DNA from: an uncultured Desulfuromonadaceae bacterium
Lineage (GTDB): Bacteria > Desulfobacterota > Desulfuromonadia > Geobacterales > Pseudopelobacteraceae
Direction: 5' to 3'
Assembly: GCA_942492875.1 (NCBI GenBank)
Contig: OW818642.1
Span: forward strand, 2,478,606 to 2,542,605
DNA: 64,000 nt
Of the stretch, positions 1 to 33,256 are shown piece by piece; within the stretch, counting starts at the first letter, position 1; the number at the start of each line of letters is the position of its first letter. The notes under the pieces were generated by a model that made no database searches, was not told the DNA's origin, and saw only the letters and a program-made list of their open reading frames with translations. The position numbers and the translations under genes were made by a program.

Positions 1-225
1 CTAAGAGTTTAATCATGGTCTTTTTCATTACATCAACATTTTCTCCAGATGTTTTGTGTGAGTACTCAAGAATTAGGAGTATATCTATGAAAGTAATAGA
101 ATAATTAATGATATTTTTATTTGCTATGTTTATAAAAATACGCTTATTCAGCCTGTTGATACTCACTCCTGAATCATTCTTATCTCCCTGTATAGTGGAC
201 CCCAAAATCCGGACAATAGTTTAAG

Positions 226-549
226 GTGGTAGCCTGCAATCAAAAGGGGCAGGCAATGAGCGAAAAAAAGCGTAAAAGTTTCACCAGTCAGCACAAGGCA
301 AAAGTAGCGCTTGACGCGATCCGAGGTACCAAGACGTTAAATGAGATCGCCCAAGAGTACACTGTCCATCCGACTCAGGTTGGCGAATGGAAGAGAGAGC
401 TGCTGGCGCAGGCTTCCAGTATTTTCGAAATCAAGCGAGGCCCCAAGCCTGATGACCCTTCCTCCAGCCCTGAGCGTCTTTACTCTGAGATCGGGCGGTT
501 GAAGATGGAACTGGACTGGCTTAAAAAAAAGTCCGGGATCGGCCAGTAG
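226..549 (+). CDS. IS3-family transposase OrfA (HTH DNA-binding part)
   Basis: 107 aa. The KRKSFTSQHKAKVALDAIRGTKTLNEIAQEYTVHPTQVGEWKRE HTH followed by a leucine-zipper-like LKMELDWLKKK is typical of IS3 OrfA. It ends just after the A AAA AAA G slippery site (523-530). Confidence 0.85.
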   Translation: MVACNQKGQAMSEKKRKSFTSQHKAKVALDAIRGTKTLNEIAQEYTVHPTQVGEWKRELLAQASSIFEIKRGPKPDDPSSSPERLYSEIGRLKMELDWLKKKSGIGQ

Positions 550-566
550 CAGACCGCAGGCACTGG

Positions 567-1472
567 GTGAGTCTGTTGGATCCCATGACGCTAACCCGAC
601 AATGCGCGTTAGCTGGTGTCGCTCGTTCCACCGTTTATTCCTCACATTTGGTCGCCGAGCCAAATGAACTAGAATTGTTGTTACTGGCGTTGATTGATGC
701 CGAATATACGCTCCATCCGTTCTATGGTAGTCGCAAAATGGTCGTACATCTGGGCAAAGCAGGCTATCCGGTCAACCGGAAGCGGGTTCAACGACTGATG
801 AGGATCCTGGGATTGGCTGGTATGGCACCAGGCCCTAATACCAGCCGGCCTCACCCTCAGCACAAGATCTATCCGTACCTGCTCAGAGGCGTGAACGTGA
901 CACGACCGAATCAGGTGTGGAGTACCGATATCACTTATATTCGCCTGCCACGAGGCTTTGCGTATCTGGCAGCCGTAATCGACTGGTACTCACGTAAAGT
1001 GTTGGCGTGGCGATTGTCAAACTCACTCGATAGCGAATTTTGCGTTGACTGCCTGGAACAGTCGCTTCGGTCATACGGCACACCGGAGATCTTTAATACA
1101 GACCAAGGGTGTCAGTTCACGAGCGATGCTTTTACCGGCGTCCTCAAGTTACACGACATCGCTATCAGCATGGATGGTCGCGGTCGGGCATTGGATAATA
1201 TCTTTGTCGAACGGCTCTGGCGAAGCGTCAAGCATGAGGATATATACCTGAAAGGGTATGTCAGCATGCCGGGATTACAACTGGGCTTGACAGAATATTT
1301 TGAGTTCTACAATACCGAAAGGCCCCATCAATCTTTGGGTAACCGAACACCGATTCAGGTCTACCAAACAGCCAGCGGCGGCGGAGCAAGAATCGTAGAC
1401 AAATTCAAAGAACGAAAAACGTTTTTAGAGGTAGAACCAAAATCAAAGGCAGAAGCTACCACCTTAAACTAG
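567..1472 (+). CDS. IS3-family transposase OrfB (DDE integrase core); expressed as OrfAB fusion by -1 frameshift at 523-530
   Basis: 301 aa with DDE motifs (WSTDITYI ... DQGCQFTS ... ERLWRSVKHE). Lies in the -1 frame relative to orfA. The upstream part of that frame is open back to a TAA just before the A8 run. Confidence 0.85.
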   Translation: MSLLDPMTLTRQCALAGVARSTVYSSHLVAEPNELELLLLALIDAEYTLHPFYGSRKMVVHLGKAGYPVNRKRVQRLMRILGLAGMAPGPNTSRPHPQHKIYPYLLRGVNVTRPNQVWSTDITYIRLPRGFAYLAAVIDWYSRKVLAWRLSNSLDSEFCVDCLEQSLRSYGTPEIFNTDQGCQFTSDAFTGVLKLHDIAISMDGRGRALDNIFVERLWRSVKHEDIYLKGYVSMPGLQLGLTEYFEFYNTERPHQSLGNRTPIQVYQTASGGGARIVDKFKERKTFLEVEPKSKAEATTLN

Positions 1473-1802
1473 ACGGATTATTGTCTTGACCAAAGGGTCC
1501 ACTAAACTGCACATAGTTAAGCTTGTATGTCTCACCAAAAAAATCCACTTTCTTTTCTTCAAATATTTTAGATGATATTTTAACAATTGCTTTTTTACTC
1601 TTATCATCATATTCGATGGTTTTTGCAACGGGTAGATTTGGTTCAATATAAATAATAGTATGTTCTGTGTTATCAAGTTCAAACCTTTGCTTATTTAATT
1701 GTAGCTGATCAATAAGTTTAGGAGCATTTTCGGTATTCACATCTCTGATCGTATCAATTGTTCCCTGTATGAATTTGTAACGCCTCAGTCGGAATTGGAC
1801 TT

Positions 1803-2540
1803 TCAGGCCGCTTGATCTAATGGTAAGTCAGCTTCCCCTGAAGGCCTGATTTCAGAATAAGCTTGCTGTCGTTTTTGTTTTCTCAGTTCTCTGGCTTCTT
1901 CAAGTTTTCTGTCACGCTCTTTGAATATTTCCAGGTCTCTGCCATTCAGTTTGTCGGCGGGTGCAACGTAGCCAATTGCGCTGTGCAGTCTGACGGTGTT
2001 GTAGTGTTCGATGTACTTTTCTACTATCCGGCGAGCATCGTCAAGGGAAAGCGGGACACCCGGACGGATGCACTCAGTCTTGATGGTCTTGTGAAATCGT
2101 TCCAGCTTACCGTTTGACTGCGGATAGAACGGAGAAGTCCGTACATGCGTCATTCCGGAGATACGAATGAATTCCTTGAAATCCTTGGCAATAAACTGCG
2201 GCCCGTTGTCGGAAATGATCCGTGGTCGTGCAGCAGGGTATTTCTCTTTGGCTCGCTGCAGAATGATTTCAATATCTGGTTCCGTCATCTGCTCTCTGAT
2301 CTCCCAATGGATAATGGAACGACTGCAACCATCCAGGAAGCTGCACAGGTAGTAGAAAGTGCCACGGATGTTGAGGTAAGAAACATCCACGTGCCAGTGG
2401 TCATGAGGTAGCAGCGGCTGTACGAAACCGGTGCCTTTGAGAGACGGCTTCTGATTCCATTTGTTAAGCAAGCCTGCTTTTGAAAGAACGCGCCAGGTGC
2501 TGGAAGGGCTGACAGCCACAACATCCTGATCCAGCATCAT
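1803..2540 (-). CDS. IS3-family transposase OrfB of IS-B (DDE core; N-terminal part encoded upstream in another frame, about 2540-2800)
   Basis: DDE motifs: HVDVSY, ISDNGPQF, NGKLERFH. The ORF begins mid-domain, consistent with programmed frameshift expression. Confidence 0.8.
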   Translation of the reverse strand: MMLDQDVVAVSPSSTWRVLSKAGLLNKWNQKPSLKGTGFVQPLLPHDHWHVDVSYLNIRGTFYYLCSFLDGCSRSIIHWEIREQMTEPDIEIILQRAKEKYPAARPRIISDNGPQFIAKDFKEFIRISGMTHVRTSPFYPQSNGKLERFHKTIKTECIRPGVPLSLDDARRIVEKYIEHYNTVRLHSAIGYVAPADKLNGRDLEIFKERDRKLEEARELRKQKRQQAYSEIRPSGEADLPLDQAA

Positions 2541-2809
2541 AAAGGTTAGCCGCCGGTAGCCCTCAAGCGGGTTGTCTATGGCGAATTTGATGATGGCTTC
2601 CCGTTCCCAGAATGCCAGCCAGAAGTCACGAGGAATCGGGGCGTTGTGCTCGTTAGCCTTACCGTACCGCTCGATCCAGCTGTAAAATTTGCTCTTTGAG
2701 ACATCCAGCCAGGATATGAAGTGTTTCAGCGGAATCTCCGCTTTGTCGCTCCATTCTTTGGTGTAATCGACAACGGCATCGCGAATGTCATGGGGAACCC
2801 AGCCGCCTG

Positions 2810-3118
2810 TTAAAGCTCCCCAAGTTCTTTTTTTAGCTTGATGTGCTCCTCCATCAATTCTGAGAGCACTTCATGCTTCCTGATTAACTTGGCTTCGAGT
2901 TGCTGGATTTTGACTTCCTCAACACGCTTTTGAGGTTTGTCTTCACGGGTAAATGCTGCGGCTCCATTCTCGAAAAACTGCTTTTGCCAGATGTAGAAAA
3001 TTGTTGGCTGAAGCTGATGTTTGTCACACAGATCTGAAACAGGTACGTGCTCGACCAGATGACGCCGTAAAATAGAAACTTTCTCTTCGGGGGTGTAATT
3101 GTGACGTTTCTTTCGCAT
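2810..3118 (-). CDS. IS3-family transposase OrfA of IS-B
   Basis: 102 aa with an HTH and a coiled coil (EEVKIQQLEAKLIRKHEVLSELMEEHIKLKKEL), typical of IS3 OrfA. Confidence 0.8.
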   Translation of the reverse strand: MRKKRHNYTPEEKVSILRRHLVEHVPVSDLCDKHQLQPTIFYIWQKQFFENGAAAFTREDKPQKRVEEVKIQQLEAKLIRKHEVLSELMEEHIKLKKELGEL

Positions 3119-3165
3119 GGACTTTCCTCCGTTCGTGATGGTTTATCACAAACGAACCAAAAGTC

Positions 3166-4503
3166 CTATTCACGCTGAGCCAATACAAATTCTCTCTTAT
3201 CCTTGTCATCTTTTCCTTCAGCTAAGGACATCAAATTGTGTTGCAGCTTAACAAAAGGATCCTTTTCCTTTTTGCCCGAACCAATTGCTAAAAATGGCTC
3301 TGTCACTTTTTTAGCTTTTAAGACACCGTTGTCGTAAATAAATCGGAGTTCACTATTTAACGGTGAAATTATGTCTTGAACCTGATCTTTGAATGCTTTA
3401 AAGGCAGGAGATTTGGCAATGAAATGGTTCCTTGTCACATCCAGGAATTTTTTCATGTTCTTATGAGAAATCTCTGCAAAGATCCAATTCCTTAAAGGAT
3501 CGTGAATAATATGTTTACCGCCTTGATATGTTAGGTAATCCGACTCCTTTACCAAGACGTTTTTATTCCTAATCCACAATCCAGTCTCTTTTTCAGTATC
3601 TGCTGATTGGAGGTCACGGTTGGAATGGAGAATGAAATAACCGAAGTCAGGTGTAGTGTCACATTTGAATAACCGCAGTTTTGTGTCAGTAGTAAATCGA
3701 GGAAAATATTTTTTTAGAGGTTTAATATCAGTTTCTCGGCCTACGCCGAAGAAATATTCTACTGTAGGAAATAATGATTTGTTGGAATATAAGTCGAATA
3801 TTTTATCTTTATCAGCAGGCACTATATTTTTAAAAAACTGATCATCTGGATTAGGTTCAAGCGGTATATATTTTCTCAAATTGTTTTCGAATTGCGGTGT
3901 AAGGATTTCCTCAATGTCTTCCTCATATACACCTTCGATAATGATTTCCGTAAATGAGTTATAATTTCCTATATGTTTCGAAATTGTTTTCTTACTTAAT
4001 ATACTTAACGAATCACGGATATTAATGTTATGACCAGATGTAAGTTTAAAGAGTTTCTCTATTAAACTTAGACTTTTTCCTTCAGTTTCTTCGCTAAACA
4101 AAGTGCTTGATTCGACTACTAGCTGGACTAAGCCTTTTAACCCTTTAGGTTTAGTTATAATGGTTACTTTTTTTCCTAATTTAAAAATAGACATTAGACC
4201 CAAGCCGAAGTGGGAATATGCATTCTCGTCGGCCCTAGATAAACCATAACCAATGCTAGTTAGAACTTCTCTAAACCGCCCCTCGCTAATACCATTGCCA
4301 TTATCGAACAAACTTAAGTATGGTACTTGCTGGCCTTTGACATCTTTATTGCCAAAAAATAAAATGCACTTGTCCGCATGATTGTCCAAAGAATTTGATA
4401 TGGCCTCTCTAATCTTCATTGAGGTTGAGGAGTATACCGAGTTAGCTACGGTGGATAATATCCCTGCTTTTACATCGATTTTGAGAGCACTAGGTTTAGT
4501 CAT
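3166..4503 (-). CDS. GHKL/Bergerat-fold ATPase (Hsp90/MutL/MORC-like N-terminal ATP-binding domain) with about 300-aa uncharacterised C-terminal region
   Basis: 445 aa. N-box-like EAISNSLDNHADK, G1 box DNGNGI, G2-like GLGLMS. Very AT-rich. Its start ATG overlaps the stop of the upstream rSAM gene (ATGACTAA at 4496-4503). Its last codon and stop fall inside the IS-B terminus, so the native C-terminus may extend about 13 codons into 1754-1790 (inference). Confidence 0.65.
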   Translation of the reverse strand: MTKPSALKIDVKAGILSTVANSVYSSTSMKIREAISNSLDNHADKCILFFGNKDVKGQQVPYLSLFDNGNGISEGRFREVLTSIGYGLSRADENAYSHFGLGLMSIFKLGKKVTIITKPKGLKGLVQLVVESSTLFSEETEGKSLSLIEKLFKLTSGHNINIRDSLSILSKKTISKHIGNYNSFTEIIIEGVYEEDIEEILTPQFENNLRKYIPLEPNPDDQFFKNIVPADKDKIFDLYSNKSLFPTVEYFFGVGRETDIKPLKKYFPRFTTDTKLRLFKCDTTPDFGYFILHSNRDLQSADTEKETGLWIRNKNVLVKESDYLTYQGGKHIIHDPLRNWIFAEISHKNMKKFLDVTRNHFIAKSPAFKAFKDQVQDIISPLNSELRFIYDNGVLKAKKVTEPFLAIGSGKKEKDPFVKLQHNLMSLAEGKDDKDKREFVLAQRE

Positions 4504-5414
4504 TCTTTACCTTCCTCTTCAAAGATTTATCGTATTCGTATATAGCATAAAGCTTACTTTCAAATTCCTTAAAAGTGGAACCATATATATCCAAAAATGA
4601 TGTTCTGCTTTTAGTTATCATTCCGCCACGATAGTAAAACAGCAAGCTAAGTTTTAGAGCTCTTAATAAATAGTTATTCCAATGTTCGTTTGGATAGGCT
4701 CTTTTATTATTGGTTGCTTCCCTGTAGCCCATTGGGAACACCAGTACACCTTCCTGATTTAGAAGATTTATTTTATAGAAAAACTCTTCAGGCGAGTCTT
4801 TAAAATTATATAATACATAACTAGAAATTTCTTTGTTTGTATACTTTTTTGCCAATCGTATGGCTTTTAATACATGCTTCTCGTTGGACAAATTATCAAA
4901 TGCAAATCTTATTGGATCTAGGTTTATTTTTGCTAGTAGTTCAGCCTTTTCTTTCGTATACAGCCGTGCATCAATCCCTTGGTTGAAATCTACCCGTTTT
5001 CCAATCTGAACCAGCTTGTCAACATCACTTTTTAAGTTTGGTGATGCCAGCCAGTTGTTATCCCAAAATGTAAGCAGGGGAAGGCTTGGCGAAACATCTT
5101 TTTCCCAATCGTTTTTCACAAAAAAATCCGGCTCCAGAGTTTTAACTGCACAAAATTTACATTTTCTGATGCAGCCTCTTGAAGTAAAACTTATGGAACT
5201 CTTTAATTTTCTATTGAAATTTACGGAATAATCCGGGGGATAATATTCAGCGTCATTTAGAAGCCCTACATGAGGTTGTATCCCTGTGGATTCGAAAATC
5301 TTTTCAGGCATCAGGGAAGCCGCAATTCCTCCAATCGAAATTTCTGAAGAAGGATATTTCCATTGATAATAGGAAGCCGTATAGTGGACCCCAAAATCCG
5401 GACAATAGTTTAAG

Positions 5415-5855
5415 GTGGTAGCCTGCAATCAAAAGGGGCAGGCAATGAGCGAAAAAAAGCGTAAAAGTTTCACCAGTCAGCACAAGGCAAAAGTAGCGCT
5501 TGACGCGATCCGAGGTACCAAGACGTTAAATGAGATCGCCCAAGAGTACACTGTCCATCCGACTCAGGTTGGCGAATGGAAGAGAGAGCTGCTGGCGCAG
5601 GCTTCCAGTATTTTCGAAATCAAGCGAGGCCCCAAGCCTGATGACCCTTCCTCCAGCCCTGAGCGTCTTTACTCTGAGATCGGGCGGTTGAAGATGGAAC
5701 TGGACTGGCTTAAAAAAAAGTCCGGATCGGCCATTAGCAGACCGCAGGCACTGGGTGAGTCTGTTGGATCCCATGACGCTAACCCGACAATGCGCGTTAG
5801 CTGGTGTCGCTCGTTCCACCGTTTATTCCTCACATTTGGTCGCCGAGCCAAATGA
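5415..5855 (+). CDS. IS-A copy 2 transposase OrfA with frameshifted, extended C-terminus
   Basis: Identical to orfA of copy 1 up to ...LKKKSG. It then reads through in an altered frame because of the 1-bp deletion. Confidence 0.7.
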   Translation: MVACNQKGQAMSEKKRKSFTSQHKAKVALDAIRGTKTLNEIAQEYTVHPTQVGEWKRELLAQASSIFEIKRGPKPDDPSSSPERLYSEIGRLKMELDWLKKKSGSAISRPQALGESVGSHDANPTMRVSWCRSFHRLFLTFGRRAK

Positions 5856-6660
5856 ACTAGAATTGTTGTTACTGGCGTTGATTGATGCCGAATATACGCT
5901 CCATCCGTTCTATGGTAGTCGCAAAATGGTCGTACATCTGGGCAAAGCAGGCTATCCGGTCAACCGGAAGCGGGTTCAACGACTGATGAGGATCCTGGGA
6001 TTGGCTGGTATGGCACCAGGCCCTAATACCAGCCGGCCTCACCCTCAGCACAAGATCTATCCGTACCTGCTCAGAGGCGTGAACGTGACACGACCGAATC
6101 AGGTGTGGAGTACCGATATCACTTATATTCGCCTGCCACGAGGCTTTGCGTATCTGGCAGCCGTAATCGACTGGTACTCACGTAAAGTGTTGGCGTGGCG
6201 ATTGTCAAACTCACTCGATAGCGAATTTTGCGTTGACTGCCTGGAACAGTCGCTTCGGTCATACGGCACACCGGAGATCTTTAATACAGACCAAGGGTGT
6301 CAGTTCACGAGCGATGCTTTTACCGGCGTCCTCAAGTTACACGACATCGCTATCAGCATGGATGGTCGCGGTCGGGCATTGGATAATATCTTTGTCGAAC
6401 GGCTCTGGCGAAGCGTCAAGCATGAGGATATATACCTGAAAGGGTATGTCAGCATGCCGGGATTACAACTGGGCTTGACAGAATATTTTGAGTTCTACAA
6501 TACCGAAAGGCCCCATCAATCTTTGGGTAACCGAACACCGATTCAGGTCTACCAAACAGCCAGCGGCGGCGGAGCAAGAATCGTAGACAAATTCAAAGAA
6601 CGAAAAACGTTTTTAGAGGTAGAACCAAAATCAAAGGCAGAAGCTACCACCTTAAACTAG
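5755..6660 (+). CDS. IS-A copy 2 transposase OrfB (DDE)
   Basis: Identical protein to 567..1472. Confidence 0.8.
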   Translation: MSLLDPMTLTRQCALAGVARSTVYSSHLVAEPNELELLLLALIDAEYTLHPFYGSRKMVVHLGKAGYPVNRKRVQRLMRILGLAGMAPGPNTSRPHPQHKIYPYLLRGVNVTRPNQVWSTDITYIRLPRGFAYLAAVIDWYSRKVLAWRLSNSLDSEFCVDCLEQSLRSYGTPEIFNTDQGCQFTSDAFTGVLKLHDIAISMDGRGRALDNIFVERLWRSVKHEDIYLKGYVSMPGLQLGLTEYFEFYNTERPHQSLGNRTPIQVYQTASGGGARIVDKFKERKTFLEVEPKSKAEATTLN

Positions 6661-6929
6661 ACGGATTATTGTCTTGACCAAAGGGTCCACTAAACCGTTT
6701 CAATGACCTTATCTAGATCCCAGGTGAATAAGGTGGTGATAAATATCTTATCTGGCTCTCTTAAGCCATCTGGATTGCCAATTCCAACCTGACTATATAT
6801 TTCACACCCACGATGTTTATCCTTAAGCATAGATGAAATCTTCATTAAGCCCAACGGAGGATATACTGTCTTTGCAATTGGTTCTACCAACAAAAATTGT
6901 TTTGAGCTTTCATACATTACATACATCTC

Positions 6930-7193
6930 CTATTCTTTATCACTTAGTACATTAGGCCATTTTCTAACAATTCGCAGCACTTCCTGATCGTCTAATAGAT
7001 TTAGCATATTCATAAAGGCAGCGATTGCTAATGGAGCTTTCCCCGATCGCTCATATTCAATGTATGTTCTGTGCTTGACGCCAATCCGCGCCGCCATTTC
7101 CTTTTGAGATATCCGACACGCCTCTCTTGCCGCAATCAAATGATGAGCTTCACAAACTAAGCTACTGAAATTATAGGATTTATCTTTTTGCAT
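6930..7193 (-). CDS. XRE-family helix-turn-helix transcriptional regulator
   Basis: 87 aa with an HTH (ISQKEMAARIGVKHRTYIEYERSGK). AT-rich. Its stop codon lies 4 bp before the rSAM start codon, so it is translationally coupled and the first gene of the operon. Confidence 0.6.
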   Translation of the reverse strand: MQKDKSYNFSSLVCEAHHLIAAREACRISQKEMAARIGVKHRTYIEYERSGKAPLAIAAFMNMLNLLDDQEVLRIVRKWPNVLSDKE

Positions 7194-7207
7194 CGGGCTA
7201 TATTAGA

Positions 7208-7300
7208 TTGATTTTATTTGCATTACAATAAAAAAGATATTTTTTGATTTTATTTGTATTAAATATACATTTTTATGCATATTTTAAGCTTAAATATGCA
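7208..7300. promoter_or_regulatory. Candidate operator/promoter region of the XRE–rSAM–ATPase operon: two 18-bp direct repeats plus a near-palindrome
   Basis: TTGATTTTATTTGCATTA (7208-7225) and TTGATTTTATTTGTATTA (7244-7261) match 17/18, with starts 36 bp apart. Near-palindrome TGCATATTT(T)AAGCTTAAATATGCA at 7276-7300. All lie in the AT-rich leader 15-110 bp upstream of the XRE start. Confidence 0.4.
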
Positions 7301-7799
7301 AGAATTTACCGCCAGTCAATTTGGGTTTTTTACTGTCTGTGTCCACTATGTATGGCGCCTGTACGATTTTGGGATTGGGATGAAGGGCGTTATGGAGAAG
7401 GCAAACAAGGGTTCTGCCATGGCAGCAGCTGGATTAACCTGAGAGTAGAAAGACTGCAGGGCTGTTGGAGCCGGGTAAGAGATGAGGGGGGAACGAGGTC
7501 ATGGCAACTGTTGATGTTGCTGGATCAGTTCGCCATGCGTGACAATGGAAAGTTCGCAAATAATCGCTGTACTCATTCCCAGTTTATGCACCCTTTTTGA
7601 ACTCTGGGCAATATTATGCTTCCTCAATAACGCGGGTAGCCAACTAAATCACGTCAAATTCCTGTCCTCCGTGCCGTTTTATGCTTCTTTTGGTTACCAG
7701 CTTATGGTTCAAGACACAAAATATTGTGCGTGCGGGGCTGGATATTTCTGGTATATTCGAAAAATAGAAATTATGGGATCAGCACGGGAGGACACAGGG

Positions 7800-10307
7800 A
7801 TGGTTCAAAAAAAGAAACGCACAATAATTAACTCACCGGGTTTGACGGAGTTGCCGCCACTGTCGCTGGACGCATCCGGCCTGGTCCACGATTACCGGCG
7901 GTATTTCACCTATACCCTCGGCCAGAATAAATACTGCCATTCGGTCAAATATTTTTACAAGGCTCTGGCGCTGACGGTTCGCGACCGGTTGATGGAACGA
8001 TGGAAGATGACCCGTTACACGTACGTCGAGTCAGGATGCAAGCATGGTTATTATCTGTCGCTTGAATTTCTGATGGGGCGGGCTCTCGGTAATGCCATGC
8101 TGAATATCGGCATAACCGATGCCGCTACAGAGGCGATGGGGCAGCTCGGCATCAAGCTGGAAGAGCTGGCCGAGGCCGAGGTTGATGCCGGTTTGGGCAA
8201 CGGCGGACTCGGGCGTTTGGCGGCCTGCTTTCTCGACAGTTGTGCCACCCTGCAGTTGCCGGTTATGGGGTATGGTCTTCGCTATGAATACGGCATGTTT
8301 CGCCAGCGGATCGTGGATGGGCGGCAGATTGAGGAGCCTGACCACTGGTTGCTGGACGGTAACCCCTGGGAACAGGAGCGCCCGGAATATACCCAGCGCG
8401 TCCGTTTCGGCGGCCGCTGTGAACACTTTACTACCGAGAGTGGCGGGTCGCGTGTCCGCTGGGTCGACAGCCGGGATGTGCTGGCGGTCCCCTACGATAT
8501 TCCGATCCCCGGGTATCGTAATGGCACCGTCAACACGCTGCGCCTCTGGAAAGCGGCTGCCACCGATGTCTTTGATCTCGGTGAATTCAATGCCGGCGAC
8601 TATGCCGAATCGGTCGCCACCAAGAATGAAGCCGAAAATATCACGATGGTGCTTTACCCGAACGATGCCAGCGAAAACGGTAAAGTCCTCCGTTTGCGCC
8701 AGCAGTATTTTCTCGCCTCCGCCAGTCTGCAGGACGTTGTTGAACGCTGGGTAATGGTGCGCAAGGGGGACTTCAGTAAATTTGCAGTCAGTAACTGTTT
8801 TCAGCTGAACGACACCCATCCAAGCTGTGCCGTGCCCGAGCTGATGCGGATTCTGATAGACGAACAGGGGATGGGGTGGGATCAGGCCTGGGGGATTACC
8901 TGTCAGACGATGGCGTATACCAATCATACCCTGCTTCCGGAAGCACTGGAAAAATGGCCTTTACCGCTTTTTGGCCAACTTCTGCCCCGTATTCTGGAGA
9001 TAATTCTGGAGATCAACGCCCGCTTCATCTTCGAGGTTTCCGGCCGCTGGCCAGGTGATAACGAGCGGATCAGGCGCATGTCCATCATTGAGGAGGGTGC
9101 GGTTCCCCAGGTGCGGATGGCGTATCTGGCGATAGTCGGGAGTTTTTCCGTCAACGGTGTCGCTGCGCTGCACTCTCAACTCCTTACCCAGGGGCTGTTC
9201 CGCGATTTTTATGAACTCTGGCCGGCCAAGTTCAACAACAAGACCAACGGTGTGACGCCGCGCCGCTGGATCGCCAACAGCAACCCCGGATTAAGTCGAA
9301 TGGTGAGCGAAAAGATCGGCGAGGGGTGGGTGGGCGACCTGCAGCAGATCAACAGGATTGCCGCTCTTGCGGATGATCCGCAGTTCCGGCAGCAGTGGCA
9401 TGATGTCAAGCAGGGGAACAAGGAGCGTCTTGCGGCTCTTGTGCAGGCCCAGTGTGATGTTGCATTCAAGCCTGAGGCTCTTTTCGATGTCCAGGTCAAG
9501 AGGATCCATGAGTATAAGAGGCAGCTCCTCAACATACTGCACGTCATCCACCTGTATGATCGTATCAAGCGCGGCGATACTGCCGGTTGGACCGATCGCT
9601 GCGTGCTGATCGGCGGGAAGGCTGCGCCCGGGTATGTCATGGCCAAGCTGATCATCAAGCTGGTCAACAATGTGGCGCAGGTGATAAATGCCGATCCGAT
9701 GGTCGGGGACAGGCTCAAGGTGGCATTTCTCCCCAATTACAGCGTGACCGCCATGGAGGTTATCTGTCCCGGCACCGACCTGTCTGAGCAGTTGTCAACG
9801 GCCGGCAAGGAAGCTTCAGGGACCGGTAACATGAAGTTCATGATGAATGGCGCGGTGACCATCGGCACCCTGGATGGTGCCAATATCGAGATCCGTGAGG
9901 AGGTTGGCGACGACAATTTCTTCATGTTCGGCCTGACGAGCGAAGAGGTCGATGAACTGCGTCAGCGCTACGATCCGCAGGGGACCATCAACCACGACGA
10001 CGATTTGCAGCGGGTTATGAACCTCCTCCGCTGCGGTCACTTCAGCCTGTTTGAGGGGGGGCTCTTCAATCCGATCATCGACGCGATCTGCTCGCCTCAT
10101 GATCCCTGGATGGTTGCTGCAGACTTCCGCAGCTTCATTGATGCTCAGCAGCGGGTCTCGGTGGCGTATCAGGATCGGGAGCGCTGGGTCCGCATGAGCA
10201 TCATGAACACCGCTTGCAGCGGCAAGTTCTCCACCGATCGTACGATCAGCGAATACAACGAGGATATCTGGCACCTGAAGGCAACATCGATCTGTGATGG
10301 GGAATAA
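7800..10307 (+). CDS. glgP: Glycogen/alpha-glucan phosphorylase
   Basis: Contains the PLP-lysine signature EASGTGNMKFMMNG and the conserved GT35 core. The likely start is the ATG at 7800 after GGGAGG. The track ORF from 7539 adds an implausible hydrophobic extension. Confidence 0.9.
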   Translation: MVQKKKRTIINSPGLTELPPLSLDASGLVHDYRRYFTYTLGQNKYCHSVKYFYKALALTVRDRLMERWKMTRYTYVESGCKHGYYLSLEFLMGRALGNAMLNIGITDAATEAMGQLGIKLEELAEAEVDAGLGNGGLGRLAACFLDSCATLQLPVMGYGLRYEYGMFRQRIVDGRQIEEPDHWLLDGNPWEQERPEYTQRVRFGGRCEHFTTESGGSRVRWVDSRDVLAVPYDIPIPGYRNGTVNTLRLWKAAATDVFDLGEFNAGDYAESVATKNEAENITMVLYPNDASENGKVLRLRQQYFLASASLQDVVERWVMVRKGDFSKFAVSNCFQLNDTHPSCAVPELMRILIDEQGMGWDQAWGITCQTMAYTNHTLLPEALEKWPLPLFGQLLPRILEIILEINARFIFEVSGRWPGDNERIRRMSIIEEGAVPQVRMAYLAIVGSFSVNGVAALHSQLLTQGLFRDFYELWPAKFNNKTNGVTPRRWIANSNPGLSRMVSEKIGEGWVGDLQQINRIAALADDPQFRQQWHDVKQGNKERLAALVQAQCDVAFKPEALFDVQVKRIHEYKRQLLNILHVIHLYDRIKRGDTAGWTDRCVLIGGKAAPGYVMAKLIIKLVNNVAQVINADPMVGDRLKVAFLPNYSVTAMEVICPGTDLSEQLSTAGKEASGTGNMKFMMNGAVTIGTLDGANIEIREEVGDDNFFMFGLTSEEVDELRQRYDPQGTINHDDDLQRVMNLLRCGHFSLFEGGLFNPIIDAICSPHDPWMVAADFRSFIDAQQRVSVAYQDRERWVRMSIMNTACSGKFSTDRTISEYNEDIWHLKATSICDGE

Positions 10308-30335: not shown

Positions 30336-30745
30336 CTCTGCACCTCCTTGCTTGTGATGTTTCCACCATAACGAAGTTGGCTCATTATTTTGATGATCTG
30401 GGTCAAGAATTGAGAGTCTCTCTGAAATGGTTGGTAATTATGTTTATGCCGACAATGAGAAGTTCCTTCTTAATTAAAATTTAAAATAATGGCAAAAGCG
30501 GGTAAAATCTGCTATGGCAGACATGCTGGCTCACTACGTTCCGCTATGCCAACGTGGTAGTTTGGCTCGTTCAGGGAACAACGTGGTGTTAACAATACGA
30601 CTTGATACATTCTGTACGGGTACCTGCATGGTCTCTGTGTGGTCTGTTTGGCGGTGACTGCCGCCACGGTGTTCCGGAATGGCGATATATTTTTAATCGT
30701 TTGTACATATCACAGTGAAATATGACAGCACCCAAGGAGGAACAC

Positions 30746-33256
30746 ATGAACGATCCCGCAGCTCTGTTTATCTGGATTGGCAACCATTATTACTACCTTT
30801 TTGCCTTCGCCATTCTCGTCGTTCTTATCTGGAACTCGGTGGTTATTGTCAGCGGCAACGAGATAGCCCTGATTGAACGGCGCTGGTTCGGCAGCAAGAT
30901 GCCTCAGGGGCGCGTTGTGGCGTTGGGGAACGAGGTCGGCATCCAGGCGCGCACCCTGGGGCCCGGCCTGCACTTCTTGATTCCGTTCATCTACAAGGCC
31001 ACCAAGAGCGTCTTCACCGAGATTCTGGAAAATGAAATCGGCCTGATAGAGTCGGTGGACGGCTCATCGATCCCCTCCGGGCGGATCTTTGCCGCGGTCG
31101 TGGCAGGGCACAACTCCTTCCAGGACGGTGAAGCTTTCATCAAGAACGGCGGCCAGAAGGGGCCGCAGATCGATGTGCTCCCTCCGGGCAAGTACCGTAT
31201 CAACCCCTACCTGTTCAAGCTGACCATGGGGAGCGTCACCGAGATCAAGGACTTTGAGATCGGCATCGTCGAGTCGGTTGACGGCGTTGCTATCGCGGAA
31301 GGCAAGATCTTTGCCCAGGCGGTGGAGGGGCACTCCTCGTTCCAGAACGGTGAAGCATTCATCACCAACGGCGGCCAGAAGGGGCCGCAGATCGAGATCA
31401 TCCCCCCCGGTAACTATCGCATCAACCCCTACCTGTTCAAGGTGACCAAAAGTTCGGCCACCAAGATCGGTGACGGCGAGATCGGCCTGGTCGAATCGGC
31501 CGACGGCGCGGCGATTCCGGCGGGACGCATCTTTGCCACGGTGGTGCCCGGTCATAACGCCTTCCAGTCGGGCCAGGATTTCATCAGGAACGGCGGCCAG
31601 AAAGGGCCGCAGACCGAGATCCTGCCGCCCGGTGTCTACCGTATCCACCCGAACCTGTTCAAGATCACCAAGGCTGCCGCCGTGATCATCGCCAAGGGTG
31701 AAGTCGGCATGGTCACCGCCCAGGACGGTGGGGCGATCCCCATGGGGCGGCTGCTGGCCCAGAGCGTGACGGGCCACTCCAATTACGAGAACGGCGAGGC
31801 CTTCCTGAAAAACGGCGGGCAGAAGGGGCCGCAGATTGACGTGCTGCTCCCCGGCACCTATCGTATCAACCTGAATCTGTTCCAGGTGCAGATTGCCCCC
31901 GCTGTGATCATCGAAGCCAACAAAATCGGTCTGGTTACCGCGCTGGACGGCATTCCGCTTCCAGAGCGGGAATACGTGGCTTCCCCGATCACCGGCCATA
32001 ACGATTACCAGGATGGTTCCGCCTTCCTCACCAAACAGGGGCAGCGCGGTCCGCAGTTGGATGTGCTGCGGCCCGGTACCTATTACATCAACCCGTTCAT
32101 GTTCAGTGTGGCCGTTGATGACGTTGCGGTCATCGAGCGCGGCCAGGTCGGGGTTATCGTCTCGAACGTGGGCGACGATCCGACGGCAGAGATGAAGAAG
32201 CGTCTCGGCTCGACCCAGGCCGGGGCCTCGGCGGAAGAGGGCAAGGAAAAGTACGTCGTACCCAAGGGATTTCGTGGCATCCAGGAGGAGGTGGCCGGCC
32301 CGGGGCGCTATTACCTCAACCGGCGGGCGTTCATGTGCTACATCATTGACACCACCAACATCACCATCGATTGGGACGACCAGGAAGACACCCGCTTCGA
32401 CCAGTTGACGGTCATCTCCAAGGACGGTTTCCCGATCCAGGTCGCCGTCAAGGTCGTTATACGCGTCCGCCCGGACCAGGCTCCCTATATGGTGGCCAAA
32501 GTTGGCTCCATCGATAACCTGATCCAGCACGTCATCCACCCGATGATTGACTCCTCCTTCCGCAACCAGGCTTCTACCGCTTCGGCCATGAACTTCTTGC
32601 AGAGTCGTTCGGAAGAGCAGACCAAGGCCGAAACCCGCGCCCGCGTCGATCTGGAAAAATATCATGTTGAGTGTGTGTCGGTGCTGATCTGTCAGATAAA
32701 ACTCCCTGAGGATCTGATGCAGACCCAGACGAAGCGGATAATCGCCGAGCAGCAGCAGGAGATGTACAAGATGGAGCAAAGATCACAGGCCGAGCGCACC
32801 GAGATGGAGAAGATGCGCGCCACGGCCGACCAGCAGCCGACTCTGGTTGCCTCGGAGATCGCCGTGAAGGTAGCGACTCAGAAGAAGACTGAGATGATCA
32901 CACTGGCCGAAGGTAATGCTGAATCAAAGGCGCTTGAGGGGATCGGTGAAGGGAAACGGCTCAAGGCCATCGGCGACGGTGAGGCATCAAAGATTGCGGC
33001 AATAGGTGAAGCAACCGCCCAGGCTTACAACAAGCAGCAGGAGGCCATCGGTGAAGAGGCGATCAAGCAGATCAAGATCGTGGAGCTGATTGCCGCCGCC
33101 ATCCAGAATGGCAATATTAAGATCGTGCCGGATGTGTTGGTGACTGGAGGCGGGACGGCTGGTGACGGGTTGATGGGGCAGTTGTCGCGGTTGTTGCCGG
33201 GAGTGGATTTGAATGGGTTGATACGGAAATCAGGAGATCAGGCGGAGAAACAGTAA
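30746..33256 (+). CDS. SPFH/flotillin-family membrane protein with five tandem 74-aa repeats of the N-terminal SPFH segment
   Basis: N-terminal TM. SPFH start motif GPGLHFLIPF. C-terminal flotillin-like coiled coil and EA-rich region. Start at the ATG at 30746, after AAGGAGG. Confidence 0.7.
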   Translation: MNDPAALFIWIGNHYYYLFAFAILVVLIWNSVVIVSGNEIALIERRWFGSKMPQGRVVALGNEVGIQARTLGPGLHFLIPFIYKATKSVFTEILENEIGLIESVDGSSIPSGRIFAAVVAGHNSFQDGEAFIKNGGQKGPQIDVLPPGKYRINPYLFKLTMGSVTEIKDFEIGIVESVDGVAIAEGKIFAQAVEGHSSFQNGEAFITNGGQKGPQIEIIPPGNYRINPYLFKVTKSSATKIGDGEIGLVESADGAAIPAGRIFATVVPGHNAFQSGQDFIRNGGQKGPQTEILPPGVYRIHPNLFKITKAAAVIIAKGEVGMVTAQDGGAIPMGRLLAQSVTGHSNYENGEAFLKNGGQKGPQIDVLLPGTYRINLNLFQVQIAPAVIIEANKIGLVTALDGIPLPEREYVASPITGHNDYQDGSAFLTKQGQRGPQLDVLRPGTYYINPFMFSVAVDDVAVIERGQVGVIVSNVGDDPTAEMKKRLGSTQAGASAEEGKEKYVVPKGFRGIQEEVAGPGRYYLNRRAFMCYIIDTTNITIDWDDQEDTRFDQLTVISKDGFPIQVAVKVVIRVRPDQAPYMVAKVGSIDNLIQHVIHPMIDSSFRNQASTASAMNFLQSRSEEQTKAETRARVDLEKYHVECVSVLICQIKLPEDLMQTQTKRIIAEQQQEMYKMEQRSQAERTEMEKMRATADQQPTLVASEIAVKVATQKKTEMITLAEGNAESKALEGIGEGKRLKAIGDGEASKIAAIGEATAQAYNKQQEAIGEEAIKQIKIVELIAAAIQNGNIKIVPDVLVTGGGTAGDGLMGQLSRLLPGVDLNGLIRKSGDQAEKQ
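31034..32143 (+). repeat. Five in-frame tandem 222-bp (74-aa) repeats inside the flotillin-like gene
   Basis: Consensus E-IG-VES-DG-AIP-GRIFA-VV-GHN-FQ-GEAF--NGGQKGPQ---LPPG-YRINP-LFK-T. About 50-60% aa identity between units, so the duplications are ancient and diverged. Degenerate half-units flank the array. Confidence 0.8.

What the first reader, a model, noticed from the sequence alone, without database searches (positions are those of the whole stretch)
4496..6926. Radical SAM gene precisely bisected by an IS copy and reconstructable in frame across the 3-bp target duplication
IS-A copy 2 (5380-6694) is flanked by CCG at 5377-5379 and 6695-6697. The 78-aa minus-strand ORF 6690..6926 (B12-binding-like N-terminus, VEPIAKTVYPPLGLMKISS) and the ORF 4496..5428 (CxxxCxxC radical SAM core) are the two halves of one gene. 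After excising the IS plus one CCG, the reading frame is continuous (...DKVIET-ASYYQWKYPSS...), giving about 370 aa. The first 16 residues of the 4496..5428 track ORF and the last residues of the 6690..6926 ORF are encoded by IS terminal sequence, so they are chimeric. This is a natural knockout of the first enzymatic gene of the island operon. It suggests the module was deleterious, or was silenced after acquisition.
Basis: seen in the sequence. Interest (0 to 1): 0.6.

Follow-up and report, generated by a model that had tools for sequence, protein, structure and literature searches.

The report
Insertion sequence splits a radical SAM gene
A mobile DNA element has cleanly cut a radical SAM enzyme gene in two, and an almost identical uncut copy found in another sample proves it; this is an ordinary gene knockout, though the operon it disables looks like an undescribed relative of a known anti-phage system.

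Summary
A 1315-bp IS3-family element (5380-6694) sits between two CCG copies (5377-5379, 6695-6697). A second copy (191-1506) is flanked by CTG/CTG, which fixes the element's ends. Removing the IS and one CCG gives a 370-codon ORF that aligns without gaps to 360-375-aa homologs across the junction. An uninterrupted allele on an ENA metagenome contig is 97.8% identical in DNA. It has the same length and is continuous through the site: 24 synonymous differences and 1 non-synonymous, the latter in the codon next to the duplication (A78 here, V78 there). The protein has an N-terminal Rossmann (B12-binding-like) domain and a CxxxCxxC radical SAM barrel. Cobalamin binding is not shown.

The next gene, a GHKL ATPase, is itself cut by two more IS elements. 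The IS copy in the rSAM gene can no longer make its transposase. The sister allele's ATPase is cut independently by an IS4-family element.

In close homologs the gene always sits with a GHKL ATPase and a class III cyclase, often next to a PycTM or TIR effector. That makes it a Pycsar-like module, and I found no description of it. The finding itself is ordinary.

The parts
6930..7193 (-). XRE-type HTH gene (87 aa), first gene of the operon; its stop lies 3 nt before the rSAM start codon
   Evidence: Pfam HTH_3, E 1.5e-6, above the gathering score. Intact and 97.7% identical in L006.
6695..6926 (-). 5' fragment of the rSAM gene: codons 1-77, including one copy of the CCG target duplication (6695-6697). 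ORF 6690..6926 adds V78 and a TAG stop using IS bases.
   Evidence: It aligns to residues 1-77 of full-length homologs.
5380..6694 (+). IS-A copy 2, IS3 family, 1315 bp, with terminal inverted repeats T(A/T)TAGTGGACCC. A 1-bp deletion three codons after the A8G slippery site (5712-5720) stops the OrfA-OrfB fusion transposase at 97 aa.
   Evidence: Ends fixed by comparison with copy 1. rve, HTH_21 and HTH_Tnp_1 domains. Frameshift simulation gives 405 aa for copy 1 and 97 aa for copy 2.
5377..5379 (.). Left copy of the 3-bp target-site duplication (CCG)
4496..5379 (-). 3' fragment of the rSAM gene: codons 78-370 and the stop, carrying C146-x3-C150-x2-C153. ORF 4496..5428 begins with 16 residues encoded by the IS.
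   Evidence: The three Cys are invariant in 56 homologs.
3193..4503 (-). GHKL (HATPase_c_3) ATPase gene, fragment 1 (codons 1-437); its start overlaps the rSAM stop by 8 nt
   Evidence: Pfam HATPase_c_3, E 5.9e-10. tblastn to 608-626-aa homologs. Alignment.
1771..3192 (-). IS-B, a second and different IS3-family element (1422 bp). It looks intact: orfA, an A7G slippery site ending at 2834, and orfB. Its flanks are AGA/ATA, so there is no perfect duplication.
   Evidence: Inverted repeats 1771-1814 / 3149-3192. Frames. rve and HTH_Tnp_1 domains.
1507..1770 (-). ATPase gene fragment 2 (about 88 codons), lying between IS-B and IS-A copy 1
   Evidence: tblastn to L005 ATPase residues 445-564. In-frame join and alignment.
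191..1506 (+). IS-A copy 1 (1316 bp), flanked by a CTG duplication (188-190 / 1507-1509). It can encode a 405-aa OrfAB by a -1 frameshift.
1..190 (-). ATPase gene fragment 3 (63 codons), running off the left edge of the window. The expected cyclase gene would lie beyond the window.
   Evidence: tblastn to homolog residues 538-600. The reconstructed 587+ aa protein is collinear with homologs.

Best explanation
**What it is.** An IS3-family insertion sequence (IS-A) transposed into codon 77/78 of a 370-codon radical SAM gene and duplicated the 3-bp target CCG. The insertion falls inside a helix of the N-terminal Rossmann (B12-binding-like) domain. The 5' fragment ends after 78 aa at a stop supplied by the IS. 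The 3' fragment, which holds the CxxxCxxC cluster site, has no native start codon. The IS lies in the opposite orientation to the gene and should also be polar on downstream genes. This much is shown.

**The operon.** The gene is the second gene, and first enzyme, of a low-GC operon acquired horizontally: XRE-HTH, then rSAM, then a GHKL ATPase, and by homology a class III cyclase-TPR with or without a PycTM or TIR effector. The host is a Geobacteraceae/Desulfuromonadaceae-like bacterium. Two more IS elements cut the ATPase gene, so the module is dead several times over.

**Timing.** The insertion is recent. The two IS-A copies differ by 2 changes in 1316 bp. The gene shows omega of about 0.01 against an intact sister allele.

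**Inferred.** In intact form the module is a Pycsar-like cyclic-nucleotide anti-phage system in which the rSAM enzyme and the ATPase are obligatory partners of the cyclase. Repeated loss to IS elements most likely reflects relaxed selection, or selection against a costly island, after transfer.
For: - **IS ends and duplications:** CCG and CTG.
- **In-frame 370-aa join:**
- **Gap-free alignment across the junction:**
- **Homolog count:** 5589 homologs; the full-length hits among the best 120 listed cover 95-100% of the query.
- **Empty-site allele L006:** 97.8% identical, 24 synonymous and 1 non-synonymous difference; dS 0.113, dN 0.0011.
- **Fold:** AF2 model with pLDDT 91.9. Top PDB matches are AprD4, MiaB and TokK.
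- **ATPase cut in three:**
- **IS-A copy 2 cannot make OrfAB:**
- **Island composition:** 30-40% GC against 55-59% in the flanking chromosome.
- **Conserved trio:** all 12 loci in my ORF scan whose rSAM is at least 49% identical to the query (L001-L005, L007-L012, L089) have the cyclase adjacent; 11 also show the ATPase, and the twelfth (L008) ends inside the cyclase gene.
- **Cyclase domain:** Guanylate_cyc above the gathering score.
- **Effectors:** PycTM adjacent in L003, L004, L010 and L012; a Pycsar-type TIR in L005.
- **Independent hit:** an ISGme2-like IS4 element cuts the ATPase of the sister allele.
- **Host taxon:**
Against: - The cyclase and effector genes of this particular locus lie beyond the window edge and were not seen.
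- No PADLOC model matches the rSAM, ATPase or cyclase. The defence role therefore rests on gene neighbourhood alone.
- IS-B has no perfect target duplication (AGA/ATA), so its history may include a rearrangement.
- The intact allele differs at the base right after the duplication (T versus C). Either the ancestral target carried a SNP or a mutation arose with or after insertion.
- Selection against the module cannot be separated from neutral decay or from an AT-rich target preference of the IS elements.
Confidence: 0.93

Rival explanations
1. The IS pile-up is neutral. IS-A, IS-B and the ISGme2-like element simply prefer, or are only tolerated in, AT-rich horizontally acquired DNA. The module was neither harmful nor selected against.
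For: The island is 30-40% GC in a 55-59% GC chromosome. All IS copies I found in the first 7.7 kb of the window lie in island DNA. IS-A transposase clusters with 111 near-identical sequences, mostly on IS-length metagenome contigs, so it is abundant and active.
Against: An omega of 0.01 shows strong constraint until shortly before disruption. Two lineages lost the operon through different IS at different sites, which also fits selection for loss. Only two target sites are known for IS-A (CTG, CCG), too few to define a preference.
Confidence: 0.45
2. The two ORFs are naturally separate genes, a small B12-like domain protein and an rSAM core protein, that merely flank an IS.
For: Both fragments appear as ORFs, and an NCBI-derived gene call lists 78-aa and 271-aa products.
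Against: All full-length homologs are single 360-390-aa proteins aligned without a gap across the junction. The Pfam B12-binding match spans residues 21-109, across the join. The L006 allele is one continuous gene. The fragment ends are IS-encoded.
Confidence: 0.01
3. The interruption is an assembly artefact: an IS copy wrongly placed in a repeat-collapsed assembly.
For: IS elements often cause misassemblies. The source record could not be retrieved for inspection.
Against: There is a perfect 3-bp duplication at both copies. The two copies differ by a 1-bp deletion and a substitution, so they are distinct loci. The source is a 3.7-Mb single contig.
Confidence: 0.02
4. The insertion is a reversible switch, a form of phase variation that turns a costly defence operon off and on by precise excision.
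For: IS-mediated on/off switching of surface and defence loci is known in other bacteria (general knowledge, not tested here).
Against: The resident IS copy cannot make its OrfAB transposase. Two further IS interrupt the next gene, so excising this copy would not restore the operon.
Confidence: 0.02

Closest known systems
IS3-family insertion sequences (IS3/IS150-type elements with 3-bp duplications)
   Same: Length of 1.3 kb. OrfA (HTH) and OrfB (rve/DDE) in a -1 frame relation, with an A-rich slippery heptamer. Imperfect terminal inverted repeats. A 3-bp target duplication at both copies. The nearest DNA matches in plasmids are annotated as IS3 family or ISPpu29-like.
   Different: The termini read TATAG.../...CTAAA rather than the usual TG...CA; the TG sits 5-6 bases in. 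The copy in the rSAM gene has a 1-bp deletion that blocks OrfAB synthesis.
Radical SAM enzymes with an N-terminal Rossmann / B12-binding-like domain (AprD4, MiaB, TokK)
   Same: The AF2 model matches them in Foldseek (TM score by query 0.56-0.64, probability 1.0). The CxxxCxxC motif is invariant. There are weak Pfam B12-binding and Radical_SAM hits.
   Different: Sequence identity is only 9-14%. A profile search of PDB sequences found nothing. The protein is shorter (about 365 aa), with no conserved N-terminal cysteines for an auxiliary cluster. Cobalamin binding is unknown.
PHROG 9298, 'radical SAM domain protein' of phages
   Same: The reconstructed protein matches the profile at E 8e-53 over residues 13-322. 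At least 544 relatives were found in IMG/VR viral contigs.
   Different: Phage members are mostly shorter (median about 300 aa). In the 10 viral loci sampled they sit in replication or other mixed phage contexts, not with an ATPase and cyclase. Their function is also unknown.
[quoted passage not shown]
   Same: Homologous loci hold a class III nucleotidyl cyclase next to PycTM or Pycsar-type TIR effectors. Pycsar is defined as a cyclase plus a cyclic-pyrimidine receptor effector (PMC11224242 abstract).
   Different: There are two extra conserved genes, the rSAM and a GHKL ATPase. The cyclase has a C-terminal TPR-like region and matches no PADLOC model at E <= 0.01. The nucleotide product is unknown. 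In this window the cyclase and effector are not visible.
Ophion (rSAM + PHP + PRTase anti-jumbo-phage system)
   Same: It is a defence operon built around a radical SAM enzyme (bioRxiv 10.1101/2025.09.30.679545).
   Different: The partner genes differ (PHP phosphatase and phosphoribosyl transferase), and there is no cyclase or GHKL ATPase. No evidence links the two rSAM families.

Membership tests
IS3 family insertion sequence | DDE/rve transposase domain in OrfB | tested here: met
   Pfam rve E 8.3e-27, rve_3 2.4e-16, HTH_21 8e-13.
IS3 family insertion sequence | OrfA and OrfB overlap in a -1 frame relation, with an A-rich slippery site that yields an OrfAB fusion | tested here: met
   Copy 1: a slip at the A8G site gives 405 aa. 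Copy 2 (the one in the rSAM gene) fails after 97 aa because of a 1-bp deletion.
IS3 family insertion sequence | Short (3-5 bp) direct target duplication | tested here: met
   CCG/CCG and CTG/CTG.
IS3 family insertion sequence | Terminal inverted repeats ending 5'-TG...CA-3' | tested here: inconclusive
   Inverted repeats T(A/T)TAGTGGACCC are present (11 of 12 bases), but the outermost bases are TA.../...AA; TG/CA lie 5-6 bases inside.
Radical SAM superfamily | CxxxCxxC motif for the [4Fe-4S] cluster | tested here: met
   C146, C150 and C153 are invariant in 17 and in 56 sequences.
Radical SAM superfamily | Partial TIM-barrel fold of the rSAM core | tested here: met
   AF2 pLDDT 91.9. Foldseek matches AprD4, MiaB, TokK, BlsE, SuiB and HemN at probability 1.0.
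Radical SAM superfamily | Pfam PF04055 above the gathering score | tested here: not met
   20.7 bits against a cut-off of 29.5. This is a divergent subfamily.
Cobalamin-dependent (class B) radical SAM enzymes | N-terminal cobalamin-binding Rossmann domain | tested here: inconclusive
   Pfam B12-binding scores 20.2 bits against a cut-off of 32.1. The fold resembles TokK, but also AprD4 and MiaB.
Cobalamin-dependent (class B) radical SAM enzymes | Actual cobalamin binding or methyl transfer | not testable with these tools
   Requires biochemistry.
Pycsar | PycC-type cyclase in the operon | tested here: inconclusive
   The gene is not visible in the window because the operon runs off the left edge. 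In homologous loci a Guanylate_cyc domain scores above the gathering score, but no PADLOC model matched at E <= 0.01.
Pycsar | Adjacent cyclic-nucleotide-activated effector (PycTM or PycTIR) | tested here: inconclusive
   PycTM is adjacent in L003, L004, L010 and L012, and a CAP12/Pycsar TIR in L005. No effector was recognised in L001 or L007. None is visible in the window.
Pycsar | Two-gene architecture (cyclase + effector) making cCMP or cUMP | tested here: not met
   The conserved core is three genes: rSAM, GHKL ATPase and cyclase. The nucleotide product is not testable here.

The most novel reading that the evidence does not exclude
The interrupted gene is the lead enzyme of an undescribed family of cyclic-nucleotide immune systems. 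The family combines a phrog_9298-type radical SAM enzyme, an Hsp90/MORC-like GHKL ATPase and a class III cyclase-TPR, with PycTM or TIR effectors. The rSAM enzyme would either modify the signal or a phage or host nucleic acid, or generate the trigger. Phages carry shorter homologs of the same rSAM, possibly as counter-measures. Independent IS inactivation in two Geobacter-like lineages would then reflect the cost of keeping such a system.
Probability: 0.4. Interest if true: 0.65.

Novelty: new member of a known kind. Interest (0 to 1): 0.33.

Why it matters
As an IS knockout this is routine, and its main practical use is for annotation. The 78-aa, 271-aa, 310-aa and 445-aa ORFs are pseudogene fragments and should be merged.

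Its wider value is as a pointer. The broken operon belongs to a widespread gene trio (rSAM, GHKL ATPase, cyclase) found in bacteria, archaea and at least one viral contig. The trio sits beside Pycsar-type effectors, has no PADLOC model and was not described in the literature I could search. The near-identical intact rSAM allele gives a ready template for reconstruction and phage-challenge tests. Independent IS hits in two lineages give a testable hint that the system is costly.

Tried and rejected
- **Source record.** Look-ups with P0001, the 445-aa ORF and the HTH found no gene on record. The DNA left of the window, where the cyclase should be, could not be read.
- **More empty sites.** A pattern scan of JGI metagenomes with ATTGAAACGGYTTCCTATTA gave one unrelated chance match.
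- **Promoters.** The scan of 4400-7800 found fewer sites than in shuffled sequence, so nothing can be said about an IS-borne outward promoter.
- **tRNA.** No tRNA gene lies near the island.
- **PADLOC.** No model matched the rSAM, ATPase or cyclase.
- **PDB sequence searches.** Nothing was found with the family profile, the cyclase or the ATPase.
- **Literature.** Searches combining radical SAM with Pycsar, GHKL, HATPase, MORC or cyclase found no description of this gene trio. Two papers recalled by PMC id were not held.
- **Alternative IS boundary.** I considered placing the boundary after ACGGTTT, which would make the junction match the V78 allele. Copy 1 shares the same terminal TTT/ATA bases with its own CTG duplication, so I rejected this.
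- **IS-B duplication.** No placement of the IS-B ends gives a perfect duplication.
Full report
**1. The observation**

The window holds two copies of one element, at 191-1506 and 5380-6694. A base-level alignment shows similarity starting at TATAGTGGACC and ending at GGTCCACTAAA in both copies. Copy 1 is flanked by CTG/CTG and copy 2 by CCG/CCG. The ends are therefore fixed by two independent insertions, each with a 3-bp target duplication.

Deleting 5380-6697 leaves 1113 nt, or 370 codons, reading ...DKVIETASYYQWKYPSS.... The TTG-initiated ORF 4496..5428 starts with 16 residues encoded by the IS. ORF 6690..6926 takes two bases of its last codon (V78) and its TAG stop from the IS terminus.

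**2. Are the fragments one gene?**

- The joined protein finds 5589 homologs. Apart from the truncated self-match P0001, the best 120 are 357-418 aa, 58-70% identical, and cover 95-100% of the query.
- In a 17-sequence alignment no gap falls at the junction.
- Pfam gives a weak B12-binding match over residues 21-109, across the join, and a weak Radical_SAM match over 142-260. Both are below the gathering score.
- The decisive evidence is an empty site. The 90% cluster of the truncated product holds a 367-aa member, P0122, encoded on ENA contig ERZ27297438 k141_1994542 (L006).
- L006 matches window 7762..6692 and 5380..3715 as one continuous stretch. Its gene has the same 1113-nt length as the reconstruction. 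There are 25 nucleotide differences, of which 24 are synonymous. dS is 0.113, dN 0.0011 and omega 0.01.
- The single amino-acid difference (A78 here, V78 in L006) lies at the base right after the duplication: ACGG|CTTCC against ACGGTTTCC. I cannot tell whether this is an older SNP or a change linked to the insertion. The position is variable among homologs.

**3. What the protein is**

An AlphaFold2 model of the 70%-identical homolog P0002, built with 56 sequences, has a mean pLDDT of 91.9. The insertion site corresponds to residue 81/82 of that model. This falls inside helix 72-88 of the N-terminal alpha/beta domain, so neither fragment keeps a complete domain.

Foldseek against the PDB ranks AprD4, MiaB and TokK first, followed by other rSAM barrels. 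Each of these is a radical SAM barrel preceded by an N-terminal Rossmann-like domain. C146, C150 and C153 are invariant, and there are no conserved N-terminal cysteines. 'B12-binding-like' is therefore a fair description of the fold, but cobalamin dependence is not established.

The family matches phrog_9298, 'radical SAM domain protein', at E 8e-53. It has at least 544 relatives in IMG/VR viral contigs, mostly shorter, in mixed replication and structural contexts.

**4. The surroundings change the picture**

The gene order on the minus strand is XRE-HTH (7193..6930), then rSAM, then a GHKL ATPase (HATPase_c_3) whose start overlaps the rSAM stop. Homologous ATPases are 608-626 aa, but the window ORF is 445 aa.

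tblastn shows the rest of the ATPase gene at 1770..1483 and 193..2. The gene is cut by a second, different IS3-family element, IS-B. IS-B spans 1771-3192, has inverted repeats at 1771-1814 and 3149-3192, and looks intact with an A7G slippery site. The gene is cut again by IS-A copy 1. The three pieces join in frame into at least 587 aa that are collinear with homologs, and the gene runs off the left edge of the window. IS-B has no perfect duplication (AGA/ATA).

The native island segments are 30-40% GC, against 55-59% in the flanking chromosome.

IS-A copy 2 differs from copy 1 by one substitution and a 1-bp deletion three codons after the A8G slippery site. A simulated -1 frameshift gives a 405-aa OrfAB for copy 1 and a 97-aa product for copy 2. 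The copy in the rSAM gene therefore cannot make its own transposase.

**5. Independent loss in the sister lineage**

In L006 the rSAM and HTH genes are intact. The ATPase, however, diverges after codon 263 into sequence that is 84% identical to the end of the IS4-family element ISGme2 on the Geobacter metallireducens plasmid. The contig ends 135 bp later.

The phosphorylase gene on L006 is only 83% identical to the window's copy. On L006 it is separated from the island by about 7.8 kb of genes that are absent from the window. The island, in contrast, is 94-98% identical. So the island moved, or was exchanged, more recently than the hosts diverged.

Cluster mates of window proteins come from Geobacteraceae, Desulfuromonadaceae and Geomonas.

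**6. What the operon is**

I checked the 12 loci in my ORF scan whose rSAM is at least 49% identical to the query (L001-L005, L007-L012, L089). All 12 have the class III cyclase gene next to it. Eleven also show the GHKL ATPase; the twelfth, L008, ends inside the cyclase gene. The cyclase is about 380 aa, scores above the Guanylate_cyc gathering score, and has a TPR-like C-terminus.

PycTM effectors lie beside the trio in L003, L004, L010 and L012, with PADLOC E-values of 1e-16 to 1e-31. A CAP12/Pycsar-type TIR lies beside it in L005. More distant rSAM subfamilies sit next to Mrr_cat nucleases or other HATPase_c_3 proteins.

No PADLOC model matches the rSAM, ATPase or cyclase. The literature I could search does not describe this trio. 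Ophion is a different rSAM system, and a recent survey of immune cyclases does not mention rSAM or GHKL partners.

My inference is that the intact operon is a Pycsar-like cyclic-nucleotide defence module with two extra obligatory genes. This rests on gene neighbourhood only.

**7. Why it was lost**

Shown:
- Four independent IS insertions fall in two adjacent genes across two lineages.
- Purifying selection was strong until recently.
- The two IS-A copies are near-identical.

Not resolved: whether loss was selected (cost or autoimmunity), was neutral, or reflects a preference of these IS for AT-rich DNA. I give roughly even odds to selection or relaxed selection against pure target bias.

**8. 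Verdict**

As a phenomenon it is an ordinary IS3-family insertion pseudogene. The more interesting by-product is the uncharacterised rSAM-GHKL-cyclase module that it disables.

Noticed in passing
window 1-4503: The GHKL ATPase gene downstream of the rSAM gene is split into three in-frame pieces (4503..3193, 1770..1507, 190..<1). The cuts are made by IS-B (1771-3192) and IS-A copy 1 (191-1506). The gene runs off the window edge.
   Followed up: yes
window 5712-5724 (compare 523-535): IS-A copy 2 lacks one G, three codons after the A8G slippery site. A -1 frameshift therefore gives a 97-aa product instead of the 405-aa OrfAB of copy 1. The copy inside the rSAM gene has no working transposase.
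   Followed up: yes
L006 11881-12020: In the contig that carries the intact rSAM allele, the ATPase gene is cut after codon 263. The interrupting sequence is the end of an IS4-family ISGme2-like element, 84% identical to Geobacter metallireducens plasmid NC_007515. This is an independent IS hit on the same operon.
   Followed up: yes
window 1771-3192: IS-B has 44-bp imperfect inverted repeats but no perfect target duplication (flanks AGA/ATA). The ATPase has 5 extra residues relative to homologs at this junction. A small rearrangement or a later mutation is possible.
   Followed up: partly
L006 1298-9156 versus window 7763-7800: About 7.8 kb of genes lie between the phosphorylase gene and the island in L006 and are absent from the window: two TPM phosphatases, LemA, a MacB-type ABC transporter with its MFP partner, and an aminotransferase. 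The phosphorylase is 83% identical between the two, whereas the island is 94-98% identical.
   Followed up: partly
L089-L168 (IMG/VR viral contigs): The rSAM family (phrog_9298) is common in viral contigs, with at least 544 relatives. Most are shorter (about 275-320 aa), and in the 10 loci sampled they sit in varied phage contexts without the ATPase or cyclase. One viral contig (L089) carries the full rSAM-cyclase-ATPase trio.
   Followed up: partly
L013-L015: The rSAM subfamily at 44-47% identity sits next to Mrr_cat restriction-endonuclease-like genes and an unannotated protein of about 380 aa, instead of the ATPase and cyclase.
   Followed up: partly
window 30983-31870: Four tandem copies of a 222-nt unit (64-72% identical) lie inside the 844-aa ORF 30722..33256. 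Its cluster mates are annotated as SPFH/band-7 (HflC/YqiK-like) proteins.
   Followed up: no
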